DNA of 29,448 bases, from positions 1-29,448 of the forward strand of contig JAHQXB010000177.1 in assembly GCA_029856435.1 (NCBI GenBank), read 5' to 3'. Source of the DNA: Candidatus Jordarchaeia archaeon (lineage in GTDB: Archaea; Asgardarchaeota; Jordiarchaeia; Jordiarchaeales; Jordiarchaeaceae). Position 1 is the stretch's first letter, and the number at the start of each line of letters is the position of its first letter. A program made the position numbers and the translations under genes. The notes under the pieces were generated by a model that ran no database searches, was not told where the DNA came from, and was given only the letters and a program-made list of their open reading frames with translations. Of the stretch, positions 2,626-29,448 are shown in pieces.

Positions 2626-3131
2626 ATATGAGTGAAATTAAATATAAACTGTTTGCAAGCAGAAAGCACTCCTTTAATGATCTTCTCTTCAAATTTAGAT
2701 TTTTAACGATAGTTATGATCAGCAAATTTCTGTGGAAGCTTTTTATCTAAATATTTTAACAATACCTCAAATACTAAAAGGCGAGCAACCGTTAAAATCT
2801 TTTGTGCTTTTTCATAGATATTCTTGCAGATAAAAATGGAGAAACTCTCCCGTGCAAATATATGCTCGTTTTTTACTCTCCTTAAGTGGTGACAAAGCTT
2901 TACTCATAAAGGGTTATACTTAGATGGTTTGCCTTCCAGCGACTCCATAACACAATGCATGGGTTTCCTTCTCTTTCAGCTGGGATCCCGAAGGCTGAAA
3001 ACAAGACCATATTACAGTCATTGGTTGCTTAGTTTTGACGTACTTTTCCAGCTTTCTAAACATTTCCCAAATTTTTTGATGGAAGGCTCTAATTGGCGTT
3101 GCTATGGCGAAATTAAAAAATGGTGTGGATT

Positions 3132-4553
3132 TTATTTGTATGCGTATTCAATGCTGACTTCCTTCTTTTCTTTTGGATTTAGAGATAGCAACCAGATGGG
3201 GTGGCCTTCAGTATCTTTTTTGGGGCTGTGTGTAGCATTTATGATTTCTGGTTTTGTGTCTTCTGGAGGTTTATCTTTTACCCATAAGATCACTGGTTCC
3301 GGTCTCGTGTTTTCTACTCTGAATTTTATGACATATTTTTTAGTGTAACCTTCGCTTGTTTCTTTTTCATTGAGTTCCACTTTTTCTTGTTCCTTTTCCA
3401 CAATCAAATCGTTAGTATAGCCTATTCGGATTCTAGCTTCCTCATTTACTGGGGTGAACTCGATTCTTCCTTCACTTGTGAATTGTGCTTTTTCCCAGTA
3501 GACCACAGAGCCGGGGGCCCAAGCTAGGTCCTTTGTGTTTGTTATTTTCAGGAAGAGGGTGGGCTTTGATTCGGATGTGTTCCAGAAATATTCTCTAATC
3601 CCCTCCACTGTTTCTTGTATAATGGGAATCAAGACTGAAGACATTTTTGGGATATTTAGGGGTTCAGAAATATAGTACTTGTACGAAATTAAGTTTTGTT
3701 TTGTTAGTGGGGTCTCAGCTTTATTTGCTTCCTTTATGTTTATCTTTGAAGGGTAAATCTGAGTCTGTGATTCAGGGGCTGTTGCTAACTCCAAGTCAAT
3801 TGAAACATCCTTCCAATCTTCAGTTGTGGGATTTGTGAGAACGCCGAAGCCGTAGAGTATGAATTTGCCATTAAGCTCATGGATGTGGTATATCATGTCC
3901 CATTTTTCCAGCCTTTGCAAATATCTAATAATCAGGCTGTGGTTTTCTTTTCCATCGCTGCCGGGATCCAGTTCCCACCCTATGGTTGCCTTAGCTTTGT
4001 TTGGTGTTTGGCTCTGGCGAATTTTCCTAATAATATTTTTACTTGGGATAATTTGATCAACTTCATTCATAGGCAGTCTGATGATGCTTCCCTCTTCTGT
4101 TAATAAAATGAGTTCATCAGTTCTTTCCACTGAATCATTAGTGATTATTAGGTGGCCGTTGGTCTCTGAGCCTAGAATGCGGCCTGTAATCTCCTCGCCA
4201 TTCTTAGTTACTATTTTTGTTTCTTCGTTTACGGAACCTTTAATGATGCTGGATAGGGCTTTATTGGGGTCTATTTGTAACCCTGCGTCTGTTGCTCCAA
4301 ATCCATCACCGGAAATCTCATACTGTATTTTCTTTACTGCACCGCCATCGAGATCTATAACCATTATTGTTCTTAGCACATTGTTTAGATCGTCTAGGTC
4401 CAAATCCAGTGAATAAAGTATTCCCTCCTTTACGGGTAGAGATCCCTGCCGCTCTACTATTGATACTCCGTTTGAAAAGAGTGTAACATGTTTGACTGGA
4501 ATTCTTTTTGATACATCCATAACTTCTTCCCCCAATATTTTCACTTTTTCCAA
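3132..4553 (-). CDS. DUF4139/DUF4140 domain protein
   Basis: N-terminal IPVKHVTLFSNGVSIVER and C-terminal LKITNTKDLAWAPGSV, EEARIRIG, FRVEN..PEPVILWVKD motifs match the DUF4140-DUF4139 architecture. The true start may be the ATG at 4520. Confidence 0.75.
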   Translation of the reverse strand: MEKVKILGEEVMDVSKRIPVKHVTLFSNGVSIVERQGSLPVKEGILYSLDLDLDDLNNVLRTIMVIDLDGGAVKKIQYEISGDGFGATDAGLQIDPNKALSSIIKGSVNEETKIVTKNGEEITGRILGSETNGHLIITNDSVERTDELILLTEEGSIIRLPMNEVDQIIPSKNIIRKIRQSQTPNKAKATIGWELDPGSDGKENHSLIIRYLQRLEKWDMIYHIHELNGKFILYGFGVLTNPTTEDWKDVSIDLELATAPESQTQIYPSKINIKEANKAETPLTKQNLISYKYYISEPLNIPKMSSVLIPIIQETVEGIREYFWNTSESKPTLFLKITNTKDLAWAPGSVVYWEKAQFTSEGRIEFTPVNEEARIRIGYTNDLIVEKEQEKVELNEKETSEGYTKKYVIKFRVENTRPEPVILWVKDKPPEDTKPEIINATHSPKKDTEGHPIWLLSLNPKEKKEVSIEYAYK

Positions 4554-4848: not shown

Positions 4849-5805
4849 ATGGGTGAAAAGCAGTTAGCAATCAGAGAGATACTCGCCAAAATTATTAAGG
4901 ACACCATCCAAGAAAGCGTGGAGCCCCCCATCCGTACCGTTATAAAAAGTATACAAATGATCCGAGACCGACTCAACGAACTTGAAGCTTCGGTAGTAAG
5001 TGTAGTTGCAGACCAAGGCGGAAAAATCGACAAACTCGAAGACGATATCACTGTTCTCTCAGAAACAGTCAAAAAGCTCGAAGGAATGTTGAATAAAGCC
5101 TCAGAATCGCCCAAAATAGATGTAACCCAACAGGAGAAACCAAGCACAGAACCGAATTCCATCAAACCCATCCCCGTAGAAATCCCCAGCAGCACCCAAA
5201 CAAGCCCAGAAACAATCACCGTTACGGAGCCGAAAGAAAAAGCAACAAAAAGAAAAATAACTGAAGAGAAAATAAGAGCATTATTCAGTAAATTAGAACA
5301 AGTTCTACCTTCAACTGAAGAGAAACTAGAATCTAAATCAACAATGGAAGACACCTCAAAATCTGCCACTGAGAGAATCTCCACTCCCGAACTCGAAGAA
5401 TTAGGGGAAACCAAACCAGAGAGAGTGAAAGAAGATGCAGTGGACATATTAACGCAAGCGGTAAAGGAGGAAAAAGCCCCCCCAGTGGTGGCAAGAGGTC
5501 AAGAAACAGAAATCAAATCTGAGGAAGAGATTCCCACCATTCCATTAGCGGAGGGCGAAGAGCTTACAGCCATTGAAGGTTCCGGCTCCGAACCAAGAAC
5601 TTCCCTAGATGATTTAACTGCGGAAATAGGTGAACTCGAAATTAAGAGATCCGATCTAGAAAGAAAACTCGGAGACCTTGCGTTCGACCGTATGCGGGGC
5701 CTAATAACAGAGGAAGAATACAGAACTAAGACTCAGGAACTTAGACAAAACCTTGAAAATATATCCCGAAAAATTGACCAAATTATAAACAAAATGAGAT
5801 ACTAA
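4849..5805 (+). CDS. Hypothetical coiled-coil protein with a P/E/T/S-rich linker and a C-terminal SHOCT-like motif
   Basis: 318-aa ORF with a GAGGA/GGATG ribosome-binding site upstream. N- and C-terminal heptads flank a low-complexity centre. The C-terminus reads DLAFDRMRGLITEEEYRTKTQEL. Confidence 0.75.
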   Translation: MGEKQLAIREILAKIIKDTIQESVEPPIRTVIKSIQMIRDRLNELEASVVSVVADQGGKIDKLEDDITVLSETVKKLEGMLNKASESPKIDVTQQEKPSTEPNSIKPIPVEIPSSTQTSPETITVTEPKEKATKRKITEEKIRALFSKLEQVLPSTEEKLESKSTMEDTSKSATERISTPELEELGETKPERVKEDAVDILTQAVKEEKAPPVVARGQETEIKSEEEIPTIPLAEGEELTAIEGSGSEPRTSLDDLTAEIGELEIKRSDLERKLGDLAFDRMRGLITEEEYRTKTQELRQNLENISRKIDQIINKMRY

Positions 5806-5856
5806 AACTATCCTCAAATTAACTTAATCTGCCCCATCACAACTTGGATCACCTAA

Positions 5857-6174
5857 CCGTTCTGACCCCGCGTTGACCTTTAACTTTGGGTCTTTCTCCC
5901 TCAAGTTTCATGGAGAGGCTTTCTCCCGGGGGAACGGTTGAGGCAGGCACGTCTCTCCTGCCTTCGGTGGGAGGATGTTCCCAGTTGTGGCTCTGTCCTC
6001 ATTGGGCTTTTTCTAACTTCCCGCATTCTGGACTTGGCTGGAGTGGGCTGCACGGCGCATGTATGTGTGGTTGTTTTTAAGAGAATGTTGGATTTAATGG
6101 TTTTTCTTTAACGTTAACTGTTGGAAGTTTCTCAAGTTAACAAACTTTCTAAATAGAAGCAGTTTTAACACCCC
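5857..6174 (-). mobile_element. Non-autonomous element family A, copy 1 (IS607-like; candidate omegaRNA scaffold at about 6053->5857)
   Basis: 318-bp repeat, roughly 80-85% identical by eye to 19598-19918 and sharing the same boundaries (CCGTTCTGACCC ... GCAGTTTTAACACCCC). No TIR, TSD or ORF. The minus strand reads GGGGTGTTAAAAC...GGTCAGAACGG. The repeat is certain; the family and strand are inferred. Confidence 0.7.
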
Positions 6175-7566: not shown

Positions 7567-7753
7567 TCATATGTTTAGGCAGCACTCCTGTTTGTAGGGG
7601 TCTGTTTTTGTGGCTGGCTTTGAGAGAAACCATCTCCCCATCTTTTTTAAGACCTTTGTGTGGAAAAATGGAGGTGGGAAGGGATGCGGAGGCAGGCTAA
7701 AGGCAAGGTCACCACAAAAATTCAGATCCCCGGAGTGGTGTTTAAACATATGG
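7567..7753. mobile_element. MITE family B, copy 1 (187 bp, ~22-bp imperfect TIR, 7-bp TSD TGCAATA)
   Basis: Left end TCATATGTTTAGGCAGCACTCC; reverse complement of the right end CCATATGTTTAAACACCACTCC. TGCAATA sits at 7560-7566 and 7754-7760. Near-identical to 17374-17556. Confidence 0.9.
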
Positions 7754-7780
7754 TGCAATACTCTCCATTGTCAAAGAGGG

Positions 7781-9335: not shown

Positions 9336-10832
9336 GTGAAGCAATTAATTCATAACGGCATTCTATTTCCACAGTATGACTATAAGGGGTTTTCCATACT
9401 TTTTAAAGGGAAAAGGATCAAACTGGAACCTAAACAGGAAGAGATGGCAGTAGCCTGGGTCAAAAAACTGGGCACAGAATATGTGGATGACTCCGTTTTT
9501 GTTAAAAACTTTTTTAATGACTTTGGCGCGGCCTTGGGTCTGGGAAAAGTTTCTCCAGAAGACTTTGATTTCTCTGAAATCATAAAGTACGTGGAAGACG
9601 AGAAACTCAAGAAAGCAAGCATGTCCAAAGAGGAGAAGAAGAGACTCGCAGCTGAGCGTAAGGAAATCCGTGAGAGAAACAAAGAGAAGTATGGCTACGC
9701 CATCGTAGATGGTAAAAGAGTGGAAATAGGAAACTATAACGCTGAGCCTTCGGGCATTTTTATGGGGAGAGGAAAGCATCCTCTTAGAGGCAAGTGGAAG
9801 GAGGGTCCCAAACCGGAAGATGTTATTCTGAATCTTTCACCCGATGCTCCGAGGCCGCCTGGGAACTGGAAAGAGATTGTGTGGGAACCGGAGTGCATGT
9901 GGATTGCAAAATGGGAGGATAAACTGCGTGGAAAATTAAAGCATGTTTGGCTATCAGACACTTCTCATCTTAAACAGAGAAGGGAAATAGAAAAGTTTGA
10001 TAAGGCTTGGGAGCTTGAGGACAAGATTGAGGAACTCAGGGCACACATAGAGGATAACTTAACAGCTGAGGATGTCAAGAGGAGAAAGATTGCCACTGTG
10101 TGCTACCTCATTGATGCTTTAAAACTGCGTGTGGGGGACGAGAAGGATAAAGATGAGGCGGACACTGTTGGTGCAACCACCCTCAGACCTGAACACATAA
10201 AGTTTGATGAGAATGGATTAACCAAATTCAATTTTTTGGGAAAAGACTCAGTGAGGTGGGAAAAGGAGGTTTACCTTCCACCCCAAGTGATTCGAAACCT
10301 CAAGGAGTTCATTACAGACGCAAAGTCTGCCATCTTTGCAGGGATAAGATCCAGTAACGTTAGCCAGTTTCTGGACGAGGTAGTGCCTGGACTAACCGCA
10401 AAGGTCTTCAGAACATATCATGCCACAAAGGTAGTGGAGAAGGAGTTAAACGAATCCAAAACCACAAAGGACGATCCAGAATATGTCAAGAAAATCACAG
10501 CCAAAATGGCCAATCTGAAAGCTGCCGAAGTGTGCAACCATAAGAAGAAAGTATCAAAAAACTTCCAGAAATCCCTCCAAAATAAAAAGGAACGCCTCAA
10601 AAAACTAAAAGAAAAGAAAACAGAAAAGGCTTACCAAAAAATAAAGGAATTAGAGGCACAAATAGAAATCATGAAGAAAACAAAAAACTATAACCTCACA
10701 ACCTCCCTCAAAAGTTACATCGATCCCCGAGTCTATTATGAATGGGGCAAAAAAGTGGACTACGATTGGAAAAAATATTATCCAAAAACACTTCAAAGAA
10801 AATTCTCTTGGGTTGAAGAAGAAATAGAGTAA
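9336..10832 (+). CDS. top1: DNA topoisomerase IB (eukaryote-like)
   Basis: LIHNGILFP, EPSGIFMGRGKHPLRGKWK and all five catalytic motifs: LRVGDEK (R), FLGKDS (K), TAKVFRTY (R), CNH (H), TSLKSYIDPR (Y). Confidence 0.97.
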   Translation: MKQLIHNGILFPQYDYKGFSILFKGKRIKLEPKQEEMAVAWVKKLGTEYVDDSVFVKNFFNDFGAALGLGKVSPEDFDFSEIIKYVEDEKLKKASMSKEEKKRLAAERKEIRERNKEKYGYAIVDGKRVEIGNYNAEPSGIFMGRGKHPLRGKWKEGPKPEDVILNLSPDAPRPPGNWKEIVWEPECMWIAKWEDKLRGKLKHVWLSDTSHLKQRREIEKFDKAWELEDKIEELRAHIEDNLTAEDVKRRKIATVCYLIDALKLRVGDEKDKDEADTVGATTLRPEHIKFDENGLTKFNFLGKDSVRWEKEVYLPPQVIRNLKEFITDAKSAIFAGIRSSNVSQFLDEVVPGLTAKVFRTYHATKVVEKELNESKTTKDDPEYVKKITAKMANLKAAEVCNHKKKVSKNFQKSLQNKKERLKKLKEKKTEKAYQKIKELEAQIEIMKKTKNYNLTTSLKSYIDPRVYYEWGKKVDYDWKKYYPKTLQRKFSWVEEEIE

Positions 10833-12442: not shown

Positions 12443-13213
12443 CTATATCTTTTCTCTCTGTTCAGGATAAGCAGTCTTAGGCCTCTTTACAATAAACGAT
12501 TCTTCCAGATCCTGGCTCATCTGTCTTGCTATTTGTACCGGTATACCCAAAGCCATATAATTAGGTGGGAACCACGAGTTTCCCGTAGGGTCCAAGGGTC
12601 CTAGGAACACCGAGTTGTGAGGCACCTTTTCTCCCATAGCCGCAGGATAAGTAACTAAGGTGGCACAAGAAGGCCCAAAGGGTGCCAAAACCGCATACAT
12701 ATCTGTCCTCCTGAAGTAAACAAGCGAGCACATATTTCTAATTTGCTCACATGTCCCAAAACAAACAATGGACTTAACACCCGGATCCTCCTCTAGGTCT
12801 TCACAAGCTTGTATCACAGTATACTTTCCGAGGGGCGTTATTTTTCCTATAGATTTGAAGCTCTCCTCAGCAACTTCAGGATTAATCTTTAAATATTCGG
12901 CGGCTCCATCAGCAAATTCCTTGGTGCCCGTAGACACAAAATACTTAATCCAAGGGGCTGGTTCGCTAAAGCCAAGCCAAGATACACCCCCAGGGCAACA
13001 CCCCTCAAGAGCATTATTCCCCAAATAAATGGGAGGCACTTCTCCGCGAACCGCCATAGTAAATATTGCTTTAGCGATGCACCGACTAACTGATTTTGTT
13101 GGAATAGCCCCAGCAGGAATATCCCGCGAACCATATACACACAGCACCCTCGCTTCCAACCTACCCGCCCTAGACAGCCTCCTTCCGACATCCCTAATGG
13201 ATAAACTGGACAT
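12443..13213 (-). CDS. DUF169 domain protein
   Basis: RC..A, GCCPGGVSWLG and FGPSCATLVTYP motifs. The ATG at 13213 follows GGAGGT, whereas the track start at 13231 lies within the RBS. Confidence 0.75.
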   Translation of the reverse strand: MSSLSIRDVGRRLSRAGRLEARVLCVYGSRDIPAGAIPTKSVSRCIAKAIFTMAVRGEVPPIYLGNNALEGCCPGGVSWLGFSEPAPWIKYFVSTGTKEFADGAAEYLKINPEVAEESFKSIGKITPLGKYTVIQACEDLEEDPGVKSIVCFGTCEQIRNMCSLVYFRRTDMYAVLAPFGPSCATLVTYPAAMGEKVPHNSVFLGPLDPTGNSWFPPNYMALGIPVQIARQMSQDLEESFIVKRPKTAYPEQREKI

Positions 13214-17373: not shown

Positions 17374-17556
17374 CCATATGTTTAGGCCGTACTCCTATTT
17401 GTAGGGATCTGTTTTTGTGGCTGGCTTGAGAGAAACCATCTTCCCACTTTTTAATACATTTATGTAGAGAAATGGAGGTGGGAAGGGATGCGGAGGCAGG
17501 CTAAGGCAAGGTCACCACAAAAATTCAGCCCCCCGGAGTGTTGTTTAAACATATGG
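17374..17556. mobile_element. MITE family B, copy 2 (183 bp)
   Basis: CCATATGTTTAGG...TTTAAACATATGG. TSD TTCGAAG (17367-17373) / TTTGAAG (17557-17563), one mismatch. The interior aligns with copy 1. Confidence 0.9.
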
Positions 17557-17832
17557 TTTGAAGGGATTCTTAAATGCTAGGTGAATAGGCCATATGTTCA
17601 GCATTGACTTCTAAATTTTTGTTTTATTTGTGGTGGATGGTGTGGTCTGCCTGTTTCTATATCTTCTGCACCCAAAATTTTCACATGAAGGTTTCAAAAA
17701 AGCCAATTTGTGTGAAGCGGAAAAAGGGAAGCGGAGCGTTTCAAGCCCTTCTACCACAACAACCTCACACACTAGGGAGTTTTTATTGAATATATGGAAT
17801 GGGGGATGGGGTTTCACGTTTTTTGAAAATTT

Positions 17833-19597: not shown

Positions 19598-19918
19598 CCG
19601 TTCTGACCCAGCGTTAACCTAGGTAACTTTGGGTCTTCCTCCCTCAAGTTCCATGGGGAGACCGGTTCACTCCCCGGGGAACGGTTGAAGCAGGCATATC
19701 TCTCCTGCTTTCGGTGGGAGGATGTTCTCAGTTGTGGCCCCGTCCCCCACTGGGCTTTTTCGAACCTCCCGCATTCTGGACGTGGCCGGAATCGGCTGCA
19801 CAACATGTTATGTGTGGTTGTTTTTAAGGGAATGATGGGTTTAATGGTTTTTCTTTAACGTTAACAGATGGAATAAGTTAACAAACTTTATTCTAAATAG
19901 AAGCAGTTTTAACACCCC
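19598..19918 (-). mobile_element. Non-autonomous element family A, copy 2 (321 bp)
   Basis: Full-length homolog of 5857-6174 with identical termini, unrelated flanks and no TSD. Confidence 0.7.
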
Positions 19919-19929
19919 ATTTATTCTTA

Positions 19930-20116
19930 CCATGTGTTCAAGAGGTGTTCCTTTTTTGTGTTGATTCCTTTTTTTGGTGGCTGGGTTGTTTGAGGGAAAT
20001 CCCCGGTTTTTAACATAAACATGTATAAAGATGAGGGCTGGAAGTCATATAGGGGAAAGGGACAGGGCGAAAACGCCACAAAAACCAGCAACAGTGAGTC
20101 CCATCTGAACATATGG
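19930..20116. mobile_element. MITE family B, diverged copy 3 (187 bp)
   Basis: Ends CCATGTGTTCAA / CTGAACATATGG. TSD ATTCTTA (19923-19929) / ACTCTTA (20117-20123). Same length as copy 1. Retains the internal TTTTGGTGGCTGG and CCACAAAAA landmarks. Confidence 0.75.
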
Positions 20117-29376: not shown

Positions 29377-29448
29377 CCGTTCTGACCCAGCGTTGACCTT
29401 TAACTTTGGGTCTTTCTCCCTCAAGTTTTATGGGGTCTTTCTCCCGGG
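29377..29448 (-). mobile_element. Non-autonomous element family A, copy 3 (truncated by the window edge)
   Basis: CCGTTCTGACCCAGCGTTGACCTTTAACTTTGGGTCTTTCTCCCTCAAG matches the start of copies 1 and 2 at the same boundary. Confidence 0.7.

What the first reader, a model, noticed from the sequence alone, without database searches (positions are those of the whole stretch)
5857..6174. Protein-free ~320-bp mobile cassette (3 copies in 24 kb) resembling a stand-alone IS607/TnpB guide-RNA module
Seen: copies at 5857-6174, 19598-19918 and 29377 to the window end share exact boundaries, with no TIR, TSD or gene. The minus strand begins GGGGTGTTAAAAC and ends GGTCAGAACGG. The element has an AT-rich ~115-bp end with repeated TTAA motifs and a GC-rich ~195-nt segment whose stems covary between copies. 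Examples: GGCAGG/CCTGCC versus AGCAGG/CCTGCT; GGAGA/TCTCC versus GGGGAG/CTCCCC; an invariant long-range pair CCGTTC (5857-5862) / GAACGG (5932-5937); and a GACCC/GGGTC stem. A conserved CTTAAAAA (minus strand, 6081-6074) lies ~25 nt before GTGCAGCC at 6053, where an archaeal TATA box would be. Established: IS607 elements use a serine recombinase, recombine at a GG core without TSD, and their TnpB guide scaffold ends at the right end, with flanking DNA supplying the guide. Inference: these are minimal, self-promoting omegaRNA cassettes that are mobilised and used in trans. Each would make a different guide: TTAGGTGATCCAAGTTGTGA, ACAAACATTCATTTAGATTT and CTATTTTAGCATTCCGTACT. This amounts to a dispersed guide repertoire in a probable Asgard-like archaeon. 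The ...AACGG right-end resemblance is from memory, not from a search.
Basis: partly seen in the sequence, partly recalled or inferred. Interest (0 to 1): 0.8.

Follow-up and report, generated by a model that had tools for sequence, protein, structure and literature searches.

The report
IS607-derived miniature transposon with guide-RNA remnant
The 318-bp repeat is a gene-less miniature derivative of an IS607-type insertion sequence (serine recombinase plus the RNA-guided nuclease TnpB) that keeps both transposon ends and the stretch that templates the nuclease's guide RNA; it has about 58 copies in this Asgard archaeon, most of which look like decaying relics, and guide-RNA-only mobile elements are already a described kind.

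Summary
The repeat is real. Three copies lie in the window and 58 loci in the 3.5-Mb genome. The ends are sharp, with no inverted repeats, no target duplication and no gene.

Relatives carry the same ends around tnpA(serine recombinase)-tnpB. One same-order genome has a complete LE-tnpA-tnpB-RE element. One same-genus genome has 750-bp deletion intermediates. Two open tnpB genes end in a right end 89% identical to this element.

Related genomes have empty sites for copies A and B. They show a GG run (C run on the window + strand) at the junction and no duplication, as expected for an IS607 serine recombinase.

The GC-rich half is therefore the decayed tnpB 3' end plus right end, which is where omegaRNA is templated.

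The functional claim is not supported. This assembly has no cognate tnpB or tnpA. Stem mismatches among copies show no strand bias (34 G-U : 31 A-C : 29 transversions). Twelve copies carry nested MITEs. The proposed TATA box is polymorphic.

Standalone mobilised omegaRNAs are already described, so I class this as a new member of a known kind. Other first-stage notes of this scan flagged the same family in other windows of this genome.

The parts
5857..6174 (-). Copy A of the miniature IS607-derived element (318 bp). In the sense of the former tnpA/tnpB genes it reads LE -> RE on the minus strand.
   Evidence: boundaries. (precisely absent from the orthologous sites of G003 and G004).
6121..6174 (-). 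Left end (LE), 54 nt, starting GGGGTGTTAAAACTGCTTCTATTTAG. It contains the TTTGTTAA box (6144-6137). That box is homologous in position to the TTTATTAA box about 30 nt upstream of the tnpA ATG in the parent.
   Evidence: 78% identical to the LE of the complete element in G008 (L069:2728-2676) and 85% to the LE of the G003 intermediates. for the box and the ATG.
6054..6120 (-). AT-rich spacer of unclear origin.
   Evidence: 2.5% divergence at the block. (the CTTAAAAA box is polymorphic).
5960..6053 (-). Decayed tnpB coding remnant. It holds ..SPECG.. of the zinc ribbon and the RuvC-III region, with an internal deletion relative to intact genes.
   Evidence: alignment with the G003 intermediates and with open TnpB genes P0001/P0002.
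5857..5959 (-). Right-end module, 103 nt: the last codons of tnpB plus the RE, i.e. the omegaRNA-scaffold template. It ends ...GGGTCAGAACGG.
   Evidence: 89% identical to the 3' ends of open tnpB genes (L137:746-845, L138:5030-5129); four helices, 91.9% paired.
5857..5862 (-). 3' arm (GAACGG in sense) of the long-range helix that closes the RE module. It lies directly next to the flank-derived guide position.
   Evidence: helix 1: 95.8% paired in 40 sequences. Conserved in the tnpB-linked relatives.
5932..5937 (-). 5' arm (CCGTTC in sense) of the same long-range helix.
5837..5856 (-). Flank that would supply the guide (TTAGGTGATCCAAGTTGTGA) if an omegaRNA is made. This is inferred only.
   Evidence: Position relative to the RE, by analogy with IS607 TnpB (paper 10.1101/2023.11.20.567912). 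No expression data.
19598..19918 (-). Copy B (321 bp, 84% identical to A).
   Evidence: Empty site in G003.
29377..29448 (-). Copy C: only the RE-side 72 nt are present, cut by the contig end.
   Evidence: The window is the whole contig C123.

Best explanation
The repeat is a non-autonomous, internally deleted IS607-family insertion sequence. The left end still carries the position of the tnpA promoter box. It is fused, through an AT-rich spacer, to the decayed 3' end of tnpB and the right end.

Shown:
- It shares both ends with tnpA(serine)-tnpB elements in related Asgard genomes.
- It inserts at a GG run (C run on the window + strand) with no target duplication.
- It has amplified to about 58 loci.

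Inferred:
- An IS607-type serine recombinase supplied in trans binds short subterminal repeats (GTTAAC-containing) in both ends. It excises the element as a circle and integrates it by crossover at a GG dinucleotide, with a mild preference for T before the Gs.
- Because the right-end module is the omegaRNA template of the parent, a transcript entering from the left end could yield a TnpB guide RNA. Its guide would be the flank next to ...ACGG, and its natural target would be the element's own vacated site.

In this genome most copies are probably inert relics. No cognate tnpA or tnpB is assembled, and the copies decay without regard to RNA pairing.
For: Origin:
- G003 (same genus) has 750-bp elements with the same two ends. 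Their minus strand reads the tnpA HTH (PF12728, E 6.6e-9), a TnpB RuvC-II piece and the zinc ribbon/RuvC-III.
- G008 (same order) has a complete 1.8-kb LE-tnpA-tnpB-RE element with HTH_17/MerR + Resolvase (E 3.2e-19) and a 396-aa TnpB (PF07282, E 3.9e-17).
- Open TnpB genes P0001 (Jordarchaeaceae MAG) and P0002 end in an RE 89% identical to the family consensus. P0002 is preceded by a 5'-truncated resolvase gene.

Insertion chemistry:
- Empty sites exist for copy A in two genomes and for copy B in one. A C run (GG in sense) sits at the junction and nothing is duplicated.
- There are no TIRs.
- The LE flank has T at -1 in 25/47 loci. This is like the TGGG target/TAM of the IS607-type CboIStron, whose omegaRNA scaffold ends ..UCGG; here it ends ..ACGG.

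Family behaviour:
- There are 58 loci.
- The ends are more conserved (5-6% divergence) than the interior (9-12%).

Decay:
- In four RE helices the 26 own-genome copies depart from Watson-Crick as 34 G-U: 31 A-C: 29 transversions.
- 12 copies hold nested MITEs.
- Fold z-scores are -0.19 and -0.25.

Partners:
- The best TnpB in the assembly is 24-36% identical to the cognate type.
Against: - No complete parent with closely matching ends was found. The only element with both ends is 68-78% identical at them and carries a stop in its tnpA HTH. The elements with an 89%-identical RE lack the LE.
- The assembly is fragmented and loses IS bodies at contig ends. Absence of a cognate tnpA/tnpB is therefore weak evidence.
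- The four RE helices do show compensatory changes between the miniature copies and the tnpB-linked relatives: 6 pairs, 11 cells, with 0/500 shuffles reaching this. The module was therefore under RNA-level selection in the parents and could still work in the better-preserved copies.
- The most conserved block of the whole element lies in the AT-rich spacer. I cannot say whether it is a recombinase site or a promoter.
Confidence: 0.8

Rival explanations
1. One reading: the copies are working, self-promoted stand-alone omegaRNA genes. Each supplies a different flank-derived guide to a TnpB encoded elsewhere, on an unassembled IS or an extrachromosomal element. Together they form a dispersed guide set.
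For: - The RE module is the omegaRNA template of the parent.
- The LE keeps the position of the tnpA promoter box.
- Standalone omegaRNAs that work in trans are documented (PMC10691335; PMC10055086).
- The assembly demonstrably loses IS bodies at contig ends.
- Covariation exists across the wider family.
Against: - No TnpB above 36% identity to the cognate type is in a 97.8%-complete assembly.
- Departures from pairing among copies are strand-symmetric and include many transversions.
- The RE helices are the least conserved part of the element.
- 7 copies have another MITE inside the scaffold.
- Known flank-derived guides serve homing to the empty site, not a target repertoire.
Confidence: 0.12
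2. An IS200/IS605-type palindrome-associated element (PATE) moved as single-stranded DNA by a Y1 HUH transposase.
For: It has no TIR and no TSD and carries a TnpB-derived right end, as PATEs do.
Against: - The relatives with these ends encode a MerR-HTH + resolvase-type TnpA, not Y1.
- No conserved 4-5-nt target motif abuts the LE.
- The junctions lie in a G run, as for IS607.
Confidence: 0.03
3. A family of cellular structured RNA genes transcribed from the plus strand (riboswitch-like or other) and unrelated to transposition.
For: - RNAalifold gives a lower energy on the plus strand (-116 vs -85; -81 vs -67).
- One upstream helix has more plus-strand G-U.
Against: - No Rfam family matched above its curated threshold. 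At permissive E-values there were five weak sub-threshold matches, the best at E 0.11.
- The sequence is homologous to tnpB coding DNA on the other strand.
- The insertions are polymorphic between species with clean empty sites.
- Copies are scattered, nested and truncated.
- Overall G-U asymmetry is absent.
- The plus-strand fold z-score is -0.25.
Confidence: 0.02

Closest known systems
IS607-family elements with TnpA(serine)-TnpB-omegaRNA, e.g. the Clostridium botulinum IStron (bioRxiv 10.1101/2023.11.20.567912) and IS607/ISC1904 (Boocock & Rice 2013, PMC4058570)
   Same: - The parent encodes a MerR-HTH + resolvase TnpA followed by TnpB.
- No TIR and no TSD, with crossover at a GG dinucleotide.
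- Flanks show little pattern apart from a T/G-rich motif before the LE.
- The RE lies at the tnpB 3' end.
- The scaffold ends ..NCGG next to the flank.
   Different: - The window element has lost both genes and is 318 bp.
- It has no group I intron.
- The host is an Asgard archaeon.
- The TAM and cleavage are untested.
Standalone mobilised omegaRNAs / PATE-like gene-less IS200/IS605 derivatives (Altae-Tran 2021 as cited in PMC10691335; Meers et al., PMC10055086)
   Same: Short, gene-less and multi-copy. It is bounded by the parent's LE and RE, keeps the omegaRNA template, and would need both transposase and TnpB in trans.
   Different: - Those described in the papers read here belong to, or are discussed with, Y1-transposase IS200/IS605 elements with hairpin ends and a fixed TAM. 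This one derives from a serine-recombinase IS607 element.
- No compatible effector is found in the same genome, whereas the published cases had one.
Classical prokaryotic MITEs (TIR + TSD), several families of which fill this same genome
   Same: A non-autonomous deletion derivative, 0.3 kb long, with tens of copies. It sits at insertion sites in or near intergenic DNA and breaks the assembly at contig ends.
   Different: It has no terminal inverted repeats and no target-site duplication.

Membership tests
IS607 family (as a non-autonomous derivative) | Transposase is a serine recombinase with an N-terminal MerR-type HTH | tested here: met
   This is not in the window element, which has no gene. 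It is met in elements sharing its ends: the G003 intermediates (HTH_17, E 6.6e-9), G008 (HTH_17/MerR + Resolvase, E 3.2e-19) and L138 (resolvase C-terminal part upstream of tnpB).
IS607 family (as a non-autonomous derivative) | Ends are not inverted repeats | tested here: met
   No inverted repeat of 40 nt or more in the window. LE GGGGTGTTAAAAC.. and RE ..GGGTCAGAACGG are unrelated.
IS607 family (as a non-autonomous derivative) | Insertion at a GG overlap dinucleotide without target-site duplication | tested here: met
   Empty sites for copy A (G003, G004) and copy B (G003) have a run of 2-5 C (G in sense) exactly at the junction, with nothing duplicated. The exact crossover position inside the G run cannot be fixed.
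IS607 family (as a non-autonomous derivative) | Mobilisation by the cognate TnpA | not testable with these tools
   This needs an excision/integration assay. The TnpA genes found in the own genome are only 41-54% identical to the parent type, and the one IS whose ends could be read (C177) has unrelated ends.
TnpB omegaRNA (standalone form) | Sequence derives from the tnpB 3' end and the transposon right end | tested here: met
   The last 103 nt are 89% identical to the 3' ends of open tnpB genes. Decayed CPECG and RuvC-III codons lie upstream.
TnpB omegaRNA (standalone form) | Conserved secondary structure supported by covariation | tested here: inconclusive
   Across 40 sequences including tnpB-linked ones, 91.9% of cells are paired (34-55% when slid) and 6 pairs have double changes. 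Within the 26 own-genome copies, departures are strand-symmetric. RNAalifold found no consensus on that alignment. Single-copy z-scores are about -0.2.
TnpB omegaRNA (standalone form) | A compatible TnpB effector in the same genome | tested here: not met
   The best matches to the cognate TnpB types are 24-36% identical. The covariance model finds only the copies and one distant RE family. Caveat: the assembly is fragmented.
TnpB omegaRNA (standalone form) | Transcribed, with a 3' guide copied from the flank | not testable with these tools
   No RNA data. The promoter is inferred only from the position of the parent's TTTATTAA box.
IS200/IS605 PATE | Y1 HUH transposase parent, and a fixed 4-5-nt target/TAM at the LE | tested here: not met
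   The parent TnpA is a resolvase type. The LE flank has only a T bias.
Classical MITE | Terminal inverted repeats and target-site duplication | tested here: not met

The most novel reading that the evidence does not exclude
The better-preserved copies are live guide-RNA genes. They would be driven by the retained tnpA promoter region and serve a TnpB encoded on an unassembled IS or an extrachromosomal element of this Jordarchaeia lineage. The Asgard host would then carry some 50 chromosomal guide loci. Their role might go beyond homing, for example retention of many elements by one nuclease, or regulation.
Probability: 0.1. Interest if true: 0.65.

Novelty: new member of a known kind. Interest (0 to 1): 0.35.

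Why it matters
- It settles what a conspicuous repeat of this Asgard genome is. Several first-stage notes had flagged it as an orphan structured RNA, a riboswitch-like RNA or an omegaRNA.
- It gives a worked example of a serine-recombinase (IS607) lineage producing gene-less, guide-template-bearing miniature elements. Different deletion forms arose in sister genomes.
- It defines the ends, the target (a G run, often preceded by T) and a covariance model that can be used to annotate the family.
- It also warns that about 58 loci, 11 of them at contig ends, fragment these assemblies.
- If any copies are expressed, they would be a natural case of one TnpB serving many elements. On present evidence that is unlikely in this genome.

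Tried and rejected
- Rfam at curated thresholds gave nothing. At permissive E-values it gave five weak sub-threshold matches, the best at E 0.11, which I read as chance.
- No tRNA or tmRNA genes were found.
- Orphan ends next to large ORFs (C165, C179) looked like candidate autonomous copies. By their sequence the ORFs look like ordinary cell genes (an acyl-CoA-synthetase-like protein and a protein built of repeated ~100-residue units); I did not run a family search on them. Other solo LE fragments (C147, C148) have no transposase beside them.
- The one IS607 in the own genome with an intact TnpA (C177) has unrelated ends.
- RNAalifold on the 40-sequence alignment returned almost no structure, so helices were set by hand and counted with controls.
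- The 'plus-strand G-U paradox' did not survive a count over 26 copies.
- Pattern scans for a closer complete parent failed. The LE 22-mer gave nothing in metagenome contigs. The RE 20-mer gave only one solo remnant. The RE 18-mer and an LE 21-mer gave nothing in viral contigs. In species genomes the RE 18-mer hit only three Asgard MAGs plus chance bacterial hits.
- The covariance model on the own genome recovered the copies plus a distant second RE family, but no tnpB-linked copy.
- No structure prediction or complex prediction was run, because no claim here depends on one.

Full report
**Observation.**
- The window is an entire 29.4-kb contig. It holds two full copies of a ~320-bp repeat (5857-6174, 19598-19918; 84% identical) and the first 72 nt of a third at the contig end (29377-29448).
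- Aligning 24 full copies from the genome with their flanks gives sharp common boundaries, CCGTTCTGACCC...GTTTTAACACCCC on the + strand. The flanks are unrelated, and there are no inverted termini and no duplicated target. No ORF of 80 aa or more lies inside.
- nhmmer profiles of the two ends and the middle find 58 loci in the 3.54-Mb, 181-contig assembly. Of these, 39 have all three parts, 24 are 300-349 bp and 11 touch contig ends.
- Copies differ from the family consensus by 5-12% per site.

**What it derives from.**
- The same-genus genome G003 (record titles: Candidatus Jordarchaeia QZM_A3) has elements with the same first ~100 and last ~50 nt but different interiors of 345, 386 and 750 bp.
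- The minus strand of the 750-bp form reads three pieces. The first is the start of an IS607-type transposase, MEKFYTTGEVAKLFRVS...KKWAYAGKIKFIKTPGG (PF12728 HTH_17, E 6.6e-9). The second is a TnpB RuvC-II piece (..IVLEKLKGIR...). The third is the zinc ribbon/RuvC-III region (..EEDRDVIAVRNLL..), which runs into the GC-rich part.
- A same-order genome, G008, has a complete 1.8-kb element:
  - The LE starts GGGGTTCTGAAACTGCTTCTGTTTAG.
  - tnpA has HTH_17/MerR then Resolvase (E 3.2e-19), with one in-frame stop in the HTH.
  - tnpB is 396 aa (PF07282, E 3.9e-17).
  - The RE ends ..GTTAACGCTGGACTAGAACGG.
- A protein search with the G003 TnpB fragment found two open TnpB genes. P0001 comes from a Jordarchaeaceae MAG and P0002 from a JGI metagenome. 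Their 3' ends plus RE are 89% identical to the last 103 nt of the family consensus. P0002 is preceded by the C-terminal two thirds of a resolvase-type tnpA.
- The LE of the window family is 78% identical to the G008 LE and 85% to the G003 LE.
- The element is therefore an internally deleted IS607-type IS. The genes lay on the window minus strand. The AT-rich ~120 bp is the LE side. The GC-rich ~197 nt is the decayed tnpB 3' end plus RE.

**How it inserts.**
- Orthologous loci in G003 and G004 (flanks 91-92% identical) lack copy A precisely. They read ..ACCTA-CC-TTTTATC.. and ..ACATA-CCCCC-TTATC.., against ..ACCTAA[element]TTATC.. in the window.
- G003 also lacks copy B together with a neighbouring 198-bp MITE. 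It reads ..GT-TCCC-ATTTA...
- In each case a run of C (G in sense) lies at the junction and nothing else is duplicated. This matches the IS607 mechanism of crossover at a GG overlap dinucleotide via a circular intermediate (PMC4058570).
- Across 47 LE junctions the base before the G run is T in 25.
- In the IS607-type C. botulinum IStron, TnpA selects TGGG with GG strictly required. TnpB uses the same TGGG as its TAM, and the omegaRNA scaffold ends ..UCGG. Here the scaffold would end ..ACGG.
- GTTAAC occurs once near the RE and twice in the LE in the family consensus. These are candidate recombinase sites by analogy with the small repeats described for IS607/ISC1904. This is inference.

**The RNA question.**
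- By established knowledge, omegaRNA comes from the tnpB 3' end and the RE, with the guide copied from the flank. The RE module is therefore an omegaRNA template by descent.
- I aligned 40 sequences: 26 own copies, 11 from G003/G001 and 3 tnpB-linked ones from G008/G041. Four nested helices are 91.9% paired, against 34-55% when partners are slid:
  - CCGUUC/GAACGG, closing the module next to the guide;
  - CCUCCC/GGGAGG;
  - GACCCA/UGGGUC;
  - an inner GUUAC/GUUAAC hairpin.
- Six pairs show double changes, mostly between the miniature copies and the tnpB-linked elements. The parents' RNA was therefore probably under selection.
- Within the own-genome copies, however, departures from Watson-Crick in these helices number 34 G-U, 31 A-C (which would be G-U on the other strand) and 29 transversion mismatches. 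That is what neutral decay gives. It also removes the 'strand paradox' raised by another note.
- The RE helices are the least conserved region (11.7% divergence), while the termini are the most conserved (5-6%). This fits selection for transposition, not for RNA function.
- Copy A folds no better than shuffled sequence on either strand.
- Rfam had no match above its curated thresholds, only five weak sub-threshold matches.

**Partners.**
- The assembly has 17 TnpB-like matches. The best matches to the cognate types are 24-36% identical.
- The closest TnpA is 54% identical and sits in an IS with unrelated ends.
- Twelve copies are interrupted by other MITEs. Seven carry the same TIR element inside the scaffold at a CCCGGG site, in both orientations.
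- Caveat: IS bodies are lost from this assembly. An identical 121-nt RE-like sequence lies at five contig ends. IS607 tnpA starts lie at three contig starts, with a fourth copy running off a contig end.

**Promoter.**
- In the G008 parent and the G003 intermediates, a TTTATTAA box sits about 30 nt before the tnpA ATG, a leaderless-type layout.
- The window family keeps the box at the same distance from the LE tip but as TTTGTTAA.
- Transcription into the RE module is possible but unproven.

**Comparison and verdict.**
- Gene-less, mobilised omegaRNA-bearing elements are already described: standalone omegaRNAs acting in trans (PMC10691335) and PATE-like elements (PMC10055086).
- My literature searches found no paper describing an IS607-derived gene-less element, in Asgard or other archaea.
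- The exact RE 18-mer occurs, apart from chance bacterial hits, only in three Asgard MAGs.
The 'working dispersed guide repertoire' is not supported here.
- I class it as a new member of a known kind, of moderate interest.

Noticed in passing
G000 contig ends C26:1-121, C30:1-121, C33:1-121, C161:1-120, C174:21859-21979 (minus strand), and C41:~5260-5383: An identical 121-nt sequence ends ..CCCACAACGG and is followed by unrelated flanks. It has the same layout as the RE module (..CCGTTGGCGGCGAAAGCCCTCCATGA..). Its closing helix reads CCGUUG/CAACGG, a compensatory variant of CCGUUC/GAACGG. It probably marks a younger, multi-copy TnpB-bearing IS whose body is missing from the assembly.
   Followed up: partly
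G000 contig starts C98:1-420, C92:1-420, C35:1-420, and C53:13560-14291: Four copies of the left end and start of an IS607-type tnpA (MPMERLYTLKEAKQPLG...VIGYARVSSASQ), all running off contig ends. This is another unresolved IS607 family, with ends unlike the element studied.
   Followed up: partly
window 7568-7754 and 17375-17557: A separate ~187-bp MITE with terminal inverted repeats CATATGTTTA...TAAACATATG. BLAST gives 25 hits of E 1e-8 or better in the genome, 83-95% identical to the window copy.
   Followed up: partly
window 19930-20116: Another ~190-bp repeat lies directly beside copy B. It has ends CCATGTGTTCA...TGAACATATGG and copies in G000, G003 and G004. It is absent, together with copy B, from the orthologous G003 site.
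   Followed up: partly
G000: C22:19037-19541, C45:1022-1519, C84:26160-26644, C126:242-734, C136:6443-6934, C138:37763-38263, C150:203-854: Seven copies of the element carry a ~165-190-bp TIR MITE (CGATAGATTCGC...GCGAATCTATCG) at the same CCCGGG site, in both orientations. This suggests a MITE with a palindromic target preference.
   Followed up: partly
G008:C24:46-98 and 12975-13027: Two matches to the LE lie 12.9 kb apart on one contig of the same-order genome. Only the second was examined, and it belongs to the complete IS. The first lies at the contig start.
   Followed up: no
L071 (G041:C48:2500-7000), 1584-2789 and 3073-4302: A Promethearchaeati MAG has a 401-aa TnpB with a homologous RE but no tnpA upstream. 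A second, unrelated 409-aa TnpB converges on it from the other strand.
   Followed up: no
window 9336-10832: A eukaryote-type DNA topoisomerase IB (PF01028, PF02919, PF14370) is encoded between the repeat copies.
   Followed up: no
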